A stretch of 28,630 nt of DNA from a virus. The notes below the pieces were generated by a model. That model saw nothing but the letters and a program-made list of their open reading frames with translations. It was not told the origin of the DNA and searched no databases. The translations under genes were made by a program, and so were the position numbers. The stretch lies in the UHGV virus genome UHGV-0195556; one strand, given 5' to 3'. This document shows, piece by piece, positions 3,527 through 20,130 of the stretch (its first letter is position 1; the number at the start of each line of letters is the position of its first letter).

Positions 3527-3556
3527 TTAAAGGTTGCCGCAAAATCGGCAGCCGGG

Positions 3557-3581
3557 CGTAGGAACCCGTGTTATCTGAAGG
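3557..3581 (+). promoter_or_regulatory. seqA-like target site of the immunity RNA
   Basis: GCGTAGGAAC...TATCTGAAGG, repeated at 3781-3821 and complementary to 3735-3756. Confidence 0.5.
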
Positions 3582-3588
3582 CGATACT

Positions 3589-3611
3589 ACACGCGCTAGG
3601 CGTGTTTTTTT
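3589..3611 (+). terminator. rho-independent terminator directly downstream of the seqA-like site (immunity terminator candidate)
   Basis: Stem ACACGC/GCGTGT with 5-nt loop followed by TTTTTTTGTGT. Confidence 0.55.
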
Positions 3612-3696
3612 GTGTCGCAGCTTTGACTCACCTAAAATTTATGGTGTGGTGGCTGATTGTATTTTTTTATTTTTTACGCCACATCATCAGAATTAT

Positions 3697-3775
3697 GGTA
3701 GTCCAGGCGGGGCAGCTTTCGGGCTGGCCGGTATCCTTCAGAGCCGGTATTCCTACCCCCGTCTGGGCTACCACC
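3697..3775 (+). ncRNA. structured small RNA, P4 CI-RNA-like immunity factor candidate
   Basis: 16-bp closing stem GGTAGTCCAGGCGGGG / CCCCGTCTGGGCTACC (two G-U pairs) enclosing internal hairpins; interior segment CCTTCAGA..TTCCTAC is complementary to both flanking seqA/seqC-like repeats; no credible ORF. Confidence 0.5.
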
Positions 3776-3780
3776 CATGA

Positions 3781-16262: not shown

Positions 16263-17231
16263 TTAGTAGGTTATTTTTGTTGCGAATACTTCGCCTTTTA
16301 CGATGGCTGTTATGATATTTTTAGCAACATCTTCTGATGCGCCAACCTTGATAAGGTCAGCAAGTATTTTGTTATTTACTTCTTTCCGGTGAGCTTTATC
16401 CTTTGCTCTACGCTCTTCTTCTTCCTTGATTCTTTTTTCTTCTGCTATTCTGGCTTGCTCTTTTGCTTCAGCCTCGCGCCTGATTCGTTCAGCCTCCTCC
16501 TGTGCTTTTCGGCGTTCTGCTTCAATTGCCGCCTGCTTTTCTCTTTCAGCTCGTTCTGCTGCCTCTTTTGCTTCGCGCTGTGCTCGTTGCTCGGCTTCAA
16601 TGCGTTCACGCTCTGCACGTTCCGCTGCGGCCTTAGCTTCTGCTTCTCGCCTTGCTGCTGCTTCAATTTCGGCTTTTGCCTTTGCTTCGGCTTCTGCTCT
16701 GGCTTTCTCTTCAGCTTCTCTTTTTAAGCGTTCTTCATGCTCTCGCTTTTCCTGCTCCGCTTTGAGTCTTGCCTCTTCTCTTTGGCGGTCAAATTCGCGA
16801 TCCATCAAAATCGCTATTTCATGGTCAGACTCAATTTGCTTTGCGAGAGCTTCAGCTGCTGCCTTAGCTTCTTCTTCGGCTTTAATCCGCGCCTGTTCTT
16901 CCTCATAATCAGTAAGAGGCTGGCGTGCCTTGGCTTTCAGCTCATCAAGGCGATCACGCACTGTCTTGCGGTTAGCATCAATGAGCTTTGGAATTTCCTT
17001 CAGTTCAGCAACAAGGTCTTTGCCAAGACCATCGAGATATGTTTTCGTCTGCGCAACTTTATACGCCAGAGAAGCGATCTCCTTTCTGCCCTTTGCCGTT
17101 GTGATATCAGGCACAAAGGACATAACTTCACGTTCAACCTTTTGAAGGATTTCTTCAATCTGGTCGGCAGACTGAAATACAGTCATTGCATTTGATTTTT
17201 CAATAACAACTAAATCTGTTACTTCACTCAT
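16263..17231 (-). CDS. hypothetical protein with long E/A/K/R-rich low-complexity coiled-coil region
   Basis: 322-aa ORF with AGGAGG RBS; central roughly 150 aa composed almost entirely of E, A, K, R. Confidence 0.6.
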   Translation of the reverse strand: MSEVTDLVVIEKSNAMTVFQSADQIEEILQKVEREVMSFVPDITTAKGRKEIASLAYKVAQTKTYLDGLGKDLVAELKEIPKLIDANRKTVRDRLDELKAKARQPLTDYEEEQARIKAEEEAKAAAEALAKQIESDHEIAILMDREFDRQREEARLKAEQEKREHEERLKREAEEKARAEAEAKAKAEIEAAARREAEAKAAAERAERERIEAEQRAQREAKEAAERAEREKQAAIEAERRKAQEEAERIRREAEAKEQARIAEEKRIKEEEERRAKDKAHRKEVNNKILADLIKVGASEDVAKNIITAIVKGEVFATKITY

Positions 17232-17265
17232 ATATCCTCCTTCGTTGTATTCTTTAAAAACGCTC

Positions 17266-17634
17266 TCAGGCGGCTTTGATAGTCATATCATCTGAATCAA
17301 ATATTCCTGATGTATCGATATCGGTAATTCTTATTCCTTCGCTACCATCCATTGGAGGCCATCCTTCCTGACCATTTCCATCATTCCAGTCGAACTCACA
17401 CACAACACCATATGCATTTAAGTCGCTTGAAATTGCTATAAGCAGAGCATGTTGCGCCAGCATGATTAATACAGCATTTAATACAGAGCCGTGTTTTTTG
17501 AGTCTGTATTCAGAGTCTGACCAGAAATTATTAATCTGGTGAAGTTTTTCCTCTGTCATTACGTCATGGTCGATTTCAATTTCTATTGATGCTTTCCAGT
17601 CGTAATCAATGATGTATTTTTTGATGTTTGACAT
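17266..17634 (-). CDS. acidic hypothetical early protein (paralogue of 17815-18138)
   Basis: 122-aa ORF with RBS; shares the motif GW-P-MDGSEG with the neighbouring 107-aa protein. Confidence 0.5.
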   Translation of the reverse strand: MSNIKKYIIDYDWKASIEIEIDHDVMTEEKLHQINNFWSDSEYRLKKHGSVLNAVLIMLAQHALLIAISSDLNAYGVVCEFDWNDGNGQEGWPPMDGSEGIRITDIDTSGIFDSDDMTIKAA

Positions 17635-17652
17635 CTGTTCATATCCTCATAG

Positions 17653-17682
17653 ATAAAAAATTGCCCTCACACTGGAGGGCAA
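17653..17682 (-). terminator. rho-independent terminator (minus strand)
   Basis: 8-bp stem TTGCCCTC/GAGGGCAA followed on the minus strand by TTTTTTAT. Confidence 0.5.
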
Positions 17683-17796
17683 AGAAGATTTCCAATAATC
17701 AGAACAAGTCGGCTCCTGTTTAGTTACGAGCGACATTGCTCCGTGTATTCACTCGTTGGAATGAATACACAGTGCAGTGTTTATTCTGTTGTTTAT

Positions 17797-17825
17797 GCCA
17801 AAAATAAAGGCCGACTATGCGGCCT
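17797..17825 (-). terminator. rho-independent terminator (minus strand), tL-like
   Basis: Stem AAGGCCG/CGGCCTT followed on the minus strand by TATTTTTGG; overlaps the stop of the 107-aa gene. Confidence 0.5.
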
Positions 17826-18138
17826 TATCCACATTCCTGAACCAAACGCAGATCGGACCGTCTTCTGTATCGTGAATCGAACCAACAAACCATCCTTCTC
17901 CATCTGGCATGCTTGGCTCCCATCCACTGATGTTTGGATTCCCATCTTCAAAATACGAGTCAATTACCGTTTGATTGTTGTCGTTTTCCATTTCAACAAT
18001 TGATGATTCAATGCCATGCTGCTTGCAGAAAGATCTGAACTCATCAGCTGAAATTACCTCTCTATCCCCAAACAGGTTGGCGTATTCTGGGTGCGTCCAG
18101 TAGCCATCCTCGCTTCGCTCTACTACTAATGCTTCCAT
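17815..18138 (-). CDS. strongly acidic hypothetical early protein immediately downstream of N
   Basis: 107-aa ORF with GAGGTGAG RBS; about 23 D/E versus 6 K/R by count. Confidence 0.5.
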   Translation of the reverse strand: MEALVVERSEDGYWTHPEYANLFGDREVISADEFRSFCKQHGIESSIVEMENDNNQTVIDSYFEDGNPNISGWEPSMPDGEGWFVGSIHDTEDGPICVWFRNVDKAA

Positions 18139-18146
18139 ATCTCACC

Positions 18147-18473
18147 TCAAATAAGTGGTTTGCTGCCTAATTTCATTTTCTGGCGACCAACACAAGTCAC
18201 ACCCATTTCACTGCGTGGCTTGCTGTACCATGTGCGCTGATTCTTGCGCTCAATACGTTGCAGGTTGCTTTCAATCTGTTCGTGGTATTCAGCCAGCACC
18301 GTAAGGTCTATCGGATTCAGTGCGCTTTCTACTCGTGATTTCGGTTTGCGATTCAGCGAGAGAATAGGGCGGTTAACTGGTTTTGCGCTTACCCCAACCA
18401 ACAGGGGATTTGCTGCTTTCCATTGAGCCTGTTTCTCTGCGCGACGTTCGCGGCGGCGTGTTTGTGCATCCAT
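18147..18473 (-). CDS. N: antitermination protein N (lambda N-like)
   Basis: MDAQTRRRERRAEKQAQWKAANPLL... matches recalled lambda N including the arginine-rich motif; the upstream extension in the track ORF is rejected. Confidence 0.9.
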   Translation of the reverse strand: MDAQTRRRERRAEKQAQWKAANPLLVGVSAKPVNRPILSLNRKPKSRVESALNPIDLTVLAEYHEQIESNLQRIERKNQRTWYSKPRSEMGVTCVGRQKMKLGSKPLI

Positions 18474-18583
18474 CTTGATTCTCCTGTCAGTTAGCTTTGA
18501 GTAACGCGCCGTGATGCTTATCTCCACGGTTGCTGTCTTGCAGCTGCATTTCGCGCTACTCAAAGCTTTCTGCTTTGAATGCT

Positions 18584-18614
18584 GCCCTTCTTCAGGGCTA
18601 AATTTTTAAGAGCC
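18584..18614 (-). promoter_or_regulatory. nutL (boxA + boxB)
   Basis: Minus strand reads GCTCTTAAAAATT..GCCCTGAAGAAGGGC, matching lambda nutL boxB exactly. Confidence 0.8.
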
Positions 18615-18659
18615 TCACCTTCAATGGTGGTTAGTGCGTCCTGCTGATGGCTTAAAATT

Positions 18660-18777: not shown

Positions 18778-20130
<1,353 letters not shown>

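What the first reader, a model, noticed from the sequence alone, without database searches (positions are those of the whole stretch)
17266..18138. Two paralogous, highly acidic small proteins immediately downstream of N: possible DNA-mimic anti-defence factors
The 107-aa protein right after N (about 23 D/E versus 6 K/R by my count) and the 122-aa protein further downstream share the motif GW-P-MDGSEG. Both sit in the earliest-expressed part of the pL operon, where lambda carries ral. Strongly acidic small early proteins are frequently DNA mimics or inhibitors of restriction and other defence systems.
Basis: inference. Interest (0 to 1): 0.5.

Follow-up and report, generated by a model that had tools for sequence, protein, structure and literature searches.

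The report
Two unrelated acidic early phage proteins
Downstream of the N gene of a lambda-like prophage lie two small, very acidic early proteins that are not related to each other: one is lambda's known but unexplained Ea10, and the other belongs to a large uncharacterised family found in phages and conjugative plasmids whose function has never been tested.

Summary
Both ORFs are real and lie on the minus strand of the N-dependent pL operon.

- **The 122-aa protein** is lambda Ea10, identical at 121 of 122 residues (Pfam DUF2528). It is a known, non-essential gene of unknown function.
- **The 107-aa protein** is a member of phrog_1372 and has no Pfam or NCBIfam model. It replaces lambda's ral-orf28-sieB cassette, with one breakpoint at the ral/p107 stop codon.
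- **Family size.** The family has about 955 clusters at 50% identity. It occurs in early regions of many proteobacterial phages, in multidomain fusions (one with a DHH phosphoesterase), and in 2,442 plasmid records, mostly F-type conjugative plasmids.

The claim that the two proteins are paralogues fails every test. BLASTP gives E 0.2 and hhalign gives probability 0.3%. Cross-profile scores equal those of shuffled sequences. The predicted secondary-structure order differs. A Foldseek search finds no cross-hit. The two genes also assort independently among phages.

The DNA-mimic anti-defence idea is plausible. It rests only on charge, the genomic slot and neighbouring nucleases, and it is untested. 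Interest is moderate.

The parts
18147..18473 (-). Antitermination gene N, the first gene of the pL operon. Its last codons differ from those of lambda N.
   Evidence: Pfam N36 E 1.5e-26 and phrog_271. 93.6% nucleotide identity to lambda N over 18172-18499. Protein comparison.
18584..18598 (-). nutL boxB hairpin (GCCCTGAAGAAGGGC on the minus strand), which loads N and lets the transcript read through the downstream terminators.
   Evidence: The hairpin was found. Window 18561-18649 aligns to the lambda stretch that contains the annotated nutL.
17815..18138 (-). p107: a 107-aa, very acidic protein (net charge -17) of the uncharacterised family phrog_1372. It occupies the slot of lambda ral-orf28-sieB.
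17807..17826 (-). Intrinsic-terminator-like hairpin followed by a T run. It contains the p107 stop codon in its loop. The junction with lambda-homologous DNA lies inside it.
   Evidence: homology boundary at 17818.
17661..17682 (-). Second terminator hairpin followed by a T run, just upstream of Ea10. It is the counterpart of lambda tL2a, which is the 3' end of the sRNA LPR1.
   Evidence: The spacer 17635-17814 lies within a block 97.9% identical to lambda. LPR1/tL2a is described between ea10 and ral in bioRxiv 10.1101/2024.10.31.621285.
17266..17634 (-). Ea10: a 122-aa acidic protein (net charge -13) of Pfam family DUF2528 / phrog_646. It matches lambda Ea10 at 121 of 122 residues (K46N).
   Evidence: Pfam E 1.8e-47 and phrog_646 E 6e-71. 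Megablast to lambda ea10. Residue comparison. AF2 model pLDDT 93.7.
16263..17231 (-). Context only: the next pL gene, a 322-aa Lys/Glu/Ala-rich protein (phrog_1376; named 'TolA' by PGAP). In mEp213 it directly follows the p107 module, with no Ea10 between them.

Best explanation
These are two unrelated, independently exchangeable accessory genes ('morons') of the N-dependent early-left operon of a lambdoid prophage.

Shown:
- The 122-aa protein is lambda Ea10 (DUF2528).
- The 107-aa protein belongs to the uncharacterised family phrog_1372.
- The p107 cassette replaces lambda's ral-orf28-sieB cassette, with one breakpoint at the ral/p107 stop codon.
- Both are predicted with confidence to be compact alpha/beta proteins. 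Neither has a relative among solved structures.
- In both families strong negative charge is conserved.
- Both are read through two terminators by N-modified RNA polymerase.

Inferred mechanism:
- Each protein most likely acts stoichiometrically, not as an enzyme. It would bind and block or redirect a host or mobile-element protein that handles nucleic acids, soon after infection.
- For p107 the likeliest target class is a nuclease or another DNA-binding enzyme, so it would act as an acidic inhibitor or decoy. It need not mean literal DNA mimicry.
- The stated confidence refers to this inferred mechanism. The identities and the lack of relatedness are far more certain (above 0.9).
For: Identity:
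- Family assignments and similarity to lambda and mEp213.
- Cassette replacement and independent assortment. mEp213 has p107 without Ea10, lambda has Ea10 without p107, and L023 has p107, ral and Ea10 together.

Early N-dependent expression:
- N, nutL and two read-through terminators.
- Ea10 is an abundant early lambda protein (PMC3961180) and is non-essential (PMC10695390).

Folded proteins with conserved acidity:
- pLDDT 94.6 and 93.7.
- Median net charge -15 and -14, at the acidic extreme among neighbouring genes.

No enzyme or DNA-binding signature:
-.

p107 is a mobile-element module seen next to nucleic-acid enzymes:
- 955 cluster representatives.
- Phage neighbours include ERF, RecT, SSB, Abc2, Ral and a 3'-5' exonuclease.
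- A DHH-phosphoesterase fusion occurs in three diverged sequences.
- 2,442 plasmid records carry a relative.
- On pKpQIL-type plasmids the gene starts 4 nt inside the stop of a DUF2726 gene and precedes a PLD-family gene. DUF2726 belongs to the PD-(D/E)XK superfamily (PMC3424549, listed).
Against: - There is no direct functional evidence of any kind.
- There is no fold match to any known inhibitor or DNA mimic.
- The DUF2726 coupling is limited to one plasmid lineage. A related Citrobacter plasmid has a different upstream gene. In seven other species the gene sits between traW and traU with no nuclease nearby.
- The phage neighbourhoods are hypervariable, with 49 distinct contexts in 66 loci. 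Guilt by association is therefore weak.
- Fusion of a supposed nuclease inhibitor to a DHH phosphoesterase is not what a simple inhibitor model predicts.
- The plasmid copies are not in the leading region.
Confidence: 0.4

Rival explanations
1. One or both proteins are literal DNA mimics. The acidic surface would imitate the phosphate backbone and titrate restriction-modification or other DNA-targeting defence enzymes, as Ocr and ArdA do.
For: - Charge density is -0.16 per residue for p107 and -0.11 for Ea10. From my own knowledge, this is within the range of known mimics.
- The acidity is conserved family-wide.
- p107 sits in the ral slot.
- Expression is early.
- No competing annotation exists.
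Against: - No Pfam Ocr or ArdA hit and no structural neighbour among solved mimics.
- In distant p107 relatives the conserved positions are mostly W, P, G and F, plus R8, H16, D90, T91 and R101. They do not form an ordered acidic array.
- p107 coexists with ral in L023.
- Many acidic phage proteins are not mimics.
Confidence: 0.2
2. They are host-physiology or developmental modulators, not defence antagonists. Like Kil, CIII and the exo-xis proteins of the same operon, they would tune host processes (replication, division, proteolysis, recombination) or the lysis-lysogeny decision.
For: - They share the operon with cIII, kil, ERF and Abc2.
- Both are dispensable in the laboratory.
- The p107 copies in F-type tra operons suggest a general mobile-element/host interface function.
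Against: - No phenotype is on record for either protein.
- The hypervariable, cassette-like distribution is more typical of arms-race genes.
Confidence: 0.25
3. p107 is a small-ligand binder, for example a sponge for a nucleotide immune signal or a regulatory domain for phosphoesterases, and not a protein inhibitor.
For: - The family has many conserved aromatic and arginine/histidine residues in about 100 aa.
- It is fused to a DHH/DHHA1 phosphoesterase.
- It occurs as a tandem duplicate in P0248.
Against: - No similarity to solved sponge proteins or any nucleotide-binding fold.
- Most of the conserved aromatics look like core residues.
- The DHH fusion was seen in only three sequences.
Confidence: 0.1
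4. The two proteins are very distant homologues (possibly with rearranged strands) that share a functional Trp/Pro/Gly loop. The reader's 'paralogues' would then be right at superfamily level.
For: - BLASTP and hhalign independently choose the same register (YWTHPEY with FWSDSEY; GWEP with GWPP).
- In both models the loop follows a helix and precedes a strand.
Against: - E 0.2 and probability 0.3%.
- Cross-profile scores equal those of shuffles.
- A duplicated-template test for circular permutation gave no gain.
- The order of secondary-structure elements differs: a beta-hairpin comes first in Ea10 and last in p107.
- No Ea10-family protein was recognisable among the 50 Foldseek BFVD matches listed; only own-family hits reached E 1e-3 or better.
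- The Pfam DUF2528 model does not hit p107 even at E 1.
Confidence: 0.05

Closest known systems
Bacteriophage lambda Ea10 (Pfam DUF2528, phrog_646)
   Same: The 122-aa protein is this protein. It is identical at 121 of 122 residues. It has the same position upstream of the cIII side of the pL operon and the same upstream spacer with tL2a/LPR1.
   Different: Nothing material differs apart from K46N. In this phage it is followed by a 322-aa gene, not directly by cIII. Its function is still unknown. The legacy 'ssb' label gets no support from the model, which shows no OB fold.
Lambda Ral (Pfam PF11058), the anti-restriction gene in the same slot
   Same: It is in the same operon and the same position after N. 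The homology breakpoint lies at the stop codon. It is also a small, non-essential early accessory protein.
   Different: There is no sequence similarity. From my own knowledge, Ral is a 66-aa basic, Cys-rich protein that enhances modification. p107 is acidic and has a different predicted fold. The two genes coexist in locus L023.
DNA-mimic anti-restriction proteins Ocr (T7 gp0.3) and ArdA
   Same: They are also small, very acidic, made early by mobile elements, and non-enzymatic.
Acidic nuclease inhibitor / immunity proteins encoded next to their nuclease (barstar, colicin Im proteins, NuiA)
   Same: On pKpQIL-type plasmids the p107 relative is a small acidic protein. Its start overlaps the stop of a PD-(D/E)xK-type DUF2726 gene.
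   Different: There is no homology or fold match to any of them. The pairing is confined to one plasmid lineage. No toxicity or neutralisation data exist.
Modular early-region phage domains such as DUF551 and Ead/Ea22
   Same: Like these, the p107 domain occurs alone or fused at either end of longer proteins of unknown function in hypervariable early regions.
   Different: It is a separate family with no sequence relation. Those families are also functionally unexplained, so the comparison explains the gene's distribution, not its mechanism.

Membership tests
Pfam DUF2528 / lambda Ea10 | Significant full-length match to the family model | tested here: met
   The 122-aa protein scores E 1.8e-47 (160.6 bits against a cut-off of 22), covering model positions 1-104 of 104. 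It matches phrog_646 at E 6e-71 and lambda Ea10 at 121 of 122 residues. The 107-aa protein gives no hit even at E 1.
phrog_1372 (uncharacterised phage family) | Significant match to the family profile, with the conserved C-terminal GWF-GSIHDTEDGP-C-W-R hairpin | tested here: met
   The 107-aa protein scores E 4.4e-44. The motif is invariant or nearly invariant in 87 relatives. The plasmid relatives also match, at E 1.7e-27 and 7.4e-37.
Paralogous pair (common family for p107 and Ea10) | Sequence or profile similarity beyond chance | tested here: not met
   BLASTP E 0.20. hhalign probability 0.3%, E 0.2. Cross-profile scores do not differ from shuffles.
Paralogous pair (common family for p107 and Ea10) | Same fold / same order of secondary-structure elements | tested here: inconclusive
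   The element order differs. Ea10 is b-b-a-a-a-a-loop-b and p107 is a-a-b-a-loop-b-b. Foldseek of p107 against BFVD returns only its own family.
Ocr (PF08684) / ArdA (PF07275) DNA mimics | Sequence membership in the family | tested here: not met
   Neither protein hits these Pfam models at E up to 1.
Ocr (PF08684) / ArdA (PF07275) DNA mimics | Fold similarity to the solved structures | tested here: not met
   [not shown]
DNA-mimic proteins as a functional class | High, conserved net negative charge | tested here: met
   Net charge is -17 and -13 for the window proteins. Family medians are -15 and -14.
DNA-mimic proteins as a functional class | Surface carboxylates arranged like DNA phosphates; competitive binding to a DNA-binding protein | not testable with these tools
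Ral (PF11058) | Sequence membership | tested here: not met
   p107 does not hit the model. Only the genomic slot is shared.
Single-stranded DNA-binding protein (legacy 'ssb' label of ea10) | OB fold / SSB family match, and a basic DNA-binding surface | tested here: not met
   There is no Pfam SSB hit. The model is an alpha/beta fold with four helices. There is no OB-fold neighbour. The pI is 4.36.
Nuclease-immunity pair (with DUF2726) | Conserved adjacency to the cognate nuclease in independent lineages | tested here: not met
   Adjacency with a 4-nt overlap occurs only on IncFII(K) pKpQIL-type plasmids. It is absent in the Citrobacter variant, in the traW-traU slot of seven species, and in phages.

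The most novel reading that the evidence does not exclude
phrog_1372, the p107 family, is a previously unrecognised and very widespread class of acidic inhibitor. It has a new fold. Phages (early operons) and F-type conjugative plasmids, including the epidemic pKpQIL backbone, would use it to neutralise a conserved host or rival nuclease or defence enzyme. The phage copy in the ral slot would be a new anti-defence protein.
Probability: 0.25. Interest if true: 0.7.

Novelty: new member of a known kind. Interest (0 to 1): 0.38.

Why it matters
Ea10 is one of the last abundant early lambda proteins without a function. p107 belongs to a family with about a thousand 50%-identity clusters. Its members occur in phages of Enterobacteria, Burkholderia, Pseudomonas and Vibrio, and in more than two thousand conjugative plasmids, many of them Klebsiella resistance plasmids.

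If either protein proved to be an inhibitor of a defence or DNA-processing enzyme, that would add a new fold to the anti-defence repertoire. It would also give a function to a gene carried by clinically important plasmids.

As things stand, the result is mainly a correction and a pointer. The two proteins are not paralogues, one is already known, and the other is a well-defined candidate for a simple plating or pull-down experiment.

Tried and rejected
- **Paralogy.** I tested it with BLASTP, hhalign with 27- and 87-sequence profiles, a duplicated-template hhalign for circular permutation, and cross-family hmmsearch against shuffles. All were negative.
- **Homology to solved structures by sequence.** Both the single proteins and the family profiles gave nothing.
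- **Family libraries.** PADLOC and NCBIfam gave no hits.
- **Source names.** Six large clusters carry only the names 'hypothetical' or 'prophage protein'.
- **A metal site formed by H16/H89/C97.** I considered this and rejected it. H89 and C97 are not conserved in distant relatives.
- **Guilt by association in 80 viral loci.** There are 49 distinct contexts, and the common neighbours are of unknown function. Pfam analysis of 149 neighbour clusters shows a generic early recombination and replication region.
- **A conserved two-gene module (small upstream ORF plus p107).** The 73-aa plasmid ORF and the 75-aa mEp213 ORF are unrelated.
- **The DUF2726-immunity idea.** It holds in only one plasmid lineage.
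- **Literature.** I found no functional study of Ea10, DUF2528, phrog_1372, phrog_646 or the motifs. The Sergueev et al. cell-cycle paper is cited mostly by papers on the lambda exo-xis region, and none of the listed titles concerns ea10. The Casjens and Hendrix review was not retrievable.

Full report
**What is there**

The window carries the immunity and early-left region of a lambdoid prophage. An identical 507-nt stretch occurs in the chromosome of E. coli MNCRE44. There the gene order is LexA-family repressor (cI), small ORF, N, hypothetical, DUF2528, 'TolA'-named 322-aa gene, cIII, kil, ERF, anti-RecBCD (Abc2).

On the minus strand the features are as follows:
- N ends at 18147 (Pfam N36, E 1.5e-26).
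- The 107-aa ORF (p107, 18138-17815) starts 8 nt later, behind a GGTGAG Shine-Dalgarno sequence.
- A terminator-like hairpin (17826-17807) holds the p107 stop codon.
- A second terminator lies at 17682-17661.
- The 122-aa ORF follows at 17634-17266.
- The nutL boxB hairpin lies at 18598-18584.

N-modified polymerase should therefore read through both terminators. That is established lambda biology, not something tested here.

**Identity of the 122-aa protein**

It is lambda Ea10.
- Pfam DUF2528 matches at E 1.8e-47 and phrog_646 at E 6e-71.
- The DNA from 17247 to 17818 is 97.9% identical to lambda 33517-34087.
- The protein differs from lambda Ea10 at one residue, K46N.

Ea10 is an abundant early lambda protein (PMC3961180). 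It is non-essential in a CRISPRi map (PMC10695390). A 2024 preprint says its role is 'not fully understood'. The old GenBank label 'ssb' gets no support here. The confident AlphaFold model (pLDDT 93.7) has a beta-hairpin, four helices, a long loop and one more strand. It has no OB-fold neighbour, and the protein is acidic.

**Identity of the 107-aa protein**

It matches phrog_1372 (E 4.4e-44) and no Pfam, NCBIfam or PADLOC model. It is 97% identical to a hypothetical protein of phage mEp213. It is 30-47% identical to hypothetical proteins of phages of Pectobacterium, Yersinia (PY54), Erwinia, Klebsiella, Burkholderia (phi1026b, phiE125), Pseudomonas, Vibrio and Ralstonia.

The family is large:
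- A profile search of 5.8 billion proteins found 874 clusters.
- An exhaustive search of 1.84 billion representatives found 955 hits at E 1e-3 or better.
- Every source name read is 'hypothetical' or 'prophage protein'.

**Are they paralogues? No detectable relationship.**

- BLASTP gives E 0.20.
- hhalign between family alignments gives probability 0.3%, E 0.2, with either 27 or 87 p107 sequences.
- Aligning against a tandemly duplicated Ea10 profile, to allow for circular permutation, brings no gain.
- Each family's HMM scores the other family's members like shuffled sequences.
- The DUF2528 model does not hit p107 at E 1.
- The order of secondary-structure elements differs.

At family level the shared string weakens. 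The methionine is not conserved in p107 relatives, and the spacing between the tryptophan and the last glycine differs. I note that BLASTP and hhalign pick the same register. I could not superpose the models. I therefore leave a 5% chance of very remote kinship.

The genes also assort independently:
- mEp213 has p107 followed directly by the 322-aa gene, with no Ea10.
- Lambda has Ea10 without p107.
- Among 35 close p107 loci, the downstream partner is Ea10, the 322-aa gene, kil, ERF or other genes.
- One locus (L023) has p107, ral and Ea10 together.

**The ral slot**

Homology with lambda stops at window position 17818. This is one base past the p107 stop codon and corresponds to the last base of the lambda ral ORF. 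Homology resumes at 18172, inside the 3' end of N. The roughly 350-nt p107 cassette thus replaces lambda's roughly 970-nt ral-orf28-sieB cassette.

**Acidity**

Negative charge is a conserved family property. Median net charge is -15 (range -22 to -4) in 87 p107 relatives and -14 (range -20 to -8) in 37 Ea10 relatives. Among 46 recurrent small genes in comparable early regions, these two families rank first and third for negative charge per residue.

**Clues to function for p107**

1. The phage contexts are hypervariable. There are 49 distinct six-gene contexts in 66 loci. The commonest neighbours have no known function. Pfam analysis of 149 neighbour clusters shows ERF, RecT, SSB, Abc2, Ral, a 3'-5' exonuclease, Ead/Ea22, DUF551 and replication genes. 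This is a generic early accessory region.
2. The domain is modular. Many representatives are 160-520 aa long with the domain at either end, and one is a tandem duplicate. The partner domains are of unknown function, except for a DHH/DHHA1 phosphoesterase. That fusion is real. Two further viral contigs carry it at 73-77% identity as one uninterrupted match to the 455-aa protein (an uninterrupted 459-aa ORF in L087).
3. The family is common on plasmids. It occurs in 2,442 records, of which 2,130 are conjugative and 1,896 are from Klebsiella. It occupies two slots in F-type plasmids.
   - The first is traW-hyp-hyp73-[p107-like]-traU, seen in Enterobacter, Salmonella, Citrobacter, Siccibacter and Atlantibacter.
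   - The second is finO-PIN-hyp-DUF2726-[p107-like]-PLD-family-repA on pKpQIL-type IncFII(K) plasmids. There its start overlaps the DUF2726 stop by 4 nt. DUF2726 belongs to the PD-(D/E)XK nuclease superfamily (PMC3424549).
   - This suggested a nuclease-inhibitor pair. However, the coupling is limited to one lineage, and a Citrobacter plasmid has a different upstream gene.
4. In distant relatives the invariant residues are G12, H16, P17, W73 and W83. Near-invariant residues are R8, P75, P78, F84, D90, T91, W99 and R101. H89 and C97 vary, which rules out a His/Cys metal site.

**Most likely mechanism**

Shown: two unrelated, compact, very acidic, non-essential early proteins with no enzymatic or DNA-binding signature. 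One is a cassette in the ral slot. The other is lambda Ea10.

Inferred: each acts stoichiometrically by binding a host or mobile-element protein that works on nucleic acids. For p107 a nuclease or another DNA enzyme is the best guess, given its neighbours and fusions.
- I put about 0.4 on this class of mechanism, and about 0.2 of that on literal DNA mimicry.
- I put about 0.25 on a developmental or host-physiology role.
- I put about 0.1 on ligand binding.

None of these is tested.

**Comparison with known families and novelty**

The 122-aa protein is already known as lambda Ea10, function unknown. p107 is a member of a catalogued but uncharacterised family. It is not a member of Ocr, ArdA, Ral, SSB or any family with a solved structure. 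If it is an inhibitor, it would be a new member of a known kind, namely the small acidic early inhibitors of mobile elements.

A specialist would not be surprised by acidic orphan genes in a pL operon. The mildly surprising points are the size of the family, its presence in both phage early operons and F-type tra regions, including epidemic Klebsiella plasmids, and its apparently new fold.

**Verdict**

The interpretation can be neither confirmed nor refuted with the tools available. Interest is 0.38.

Noticed in passing
window 18778-19182 (-): A 134-aa ORF has a signal-peptide-like start ([20 protein letters not shown]...). Its ATG overlaps the stop codon of the cI-like repressor (ATGA). It matches phrog_2651, of unknown function. 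It sits where lambda has rexAB, so it is probably made in the lysogen together with the repressor. RefSeq annotates only a shorter 103-aa form that lacks the signal peptide.
   Followed up: partly
window 17635-17814 (-), terminator 17661-17682: The spacer between p107 and Ea10 lies within a block (17247-17818) that is 97.9% identical to lambda, and it corresponds to lambda's ea10-ral spacer. It should therefore encode the Hfq-bound sRNA LPR1, whose 3' end is terminator tL2a (bioRxiv 10.1101/2024.10.31.621285). No Rfam family covers it.
   Followed up: partly
window 3533-3610 (+) and 3691-3778 (+): Rfam gathering-level matches to the isrK Hfq-binding RNA (68.9 bits) and to the C4 antisense RNA (81.1 bits). 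This is the P1/P7-type antirepressor control module, located elsewhere in the prophage.
   Followed up: no
window 16263-17231 (-): A 322-aa protein has a long Lys/Glu/Ala-rich repeat region (phrog_1376). RefSeq names it 'TolA', which looks like a low-complexity artefact. It is homologous to Sf6 gene 33 according to the mEp213 annotation.
   Followed up: no
L115 7345-8955; L116 1513-3123 (pKPoxa-48N2, pKpQIL-571): On IncFII(K) plasmids a p107 relative is translationally coupled to a DUF2726 (PD-(D/E)xK-type) gene and followed by a PLD-family gene, between finO and repA. Several other genomes keep only a 3' remnant of the p107-like gene upstream of the PLD gene (L136, L137, L140, L141).
   Followed up: partly
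L117 4983-5306; L118 4983-5306; L120-L123, L125, L127: In other F-type plasmids a p107 relative sits inside the tra operon between traW and traU. It follows a conserved 73-aa ORF, and in the two annotated plasmids (L117, L118) its end overlaps the traU start.
   Followed up: partly
L087 4001-5380; L088: Pseudomonas-like (high-GC) viral contigs encode a DHH/DHHA1 phosphoesterase fused to a C-terminal p107 domain. In L087 it lies next to an HD-domain deoxynucleotide monophosphate phosphatase and upstream of a long ORF whose sequence resembles a DNA cytosine methyltransferase (not scanned). In sister contigs the DHH gene is followed by a different module, and that module is itself fused to a p107 domain in protein P0293.
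   Followed up: partly
L001 (phage mEp213) 1953-2285 and 3438-3710: mEp213 is annotated with two N antitermination genes in tandem in its early-left region. A 68-nt copy of the tL2a-like terminator region also occurs twice.
   Followed up: no
[not shown]
   Followed up: no
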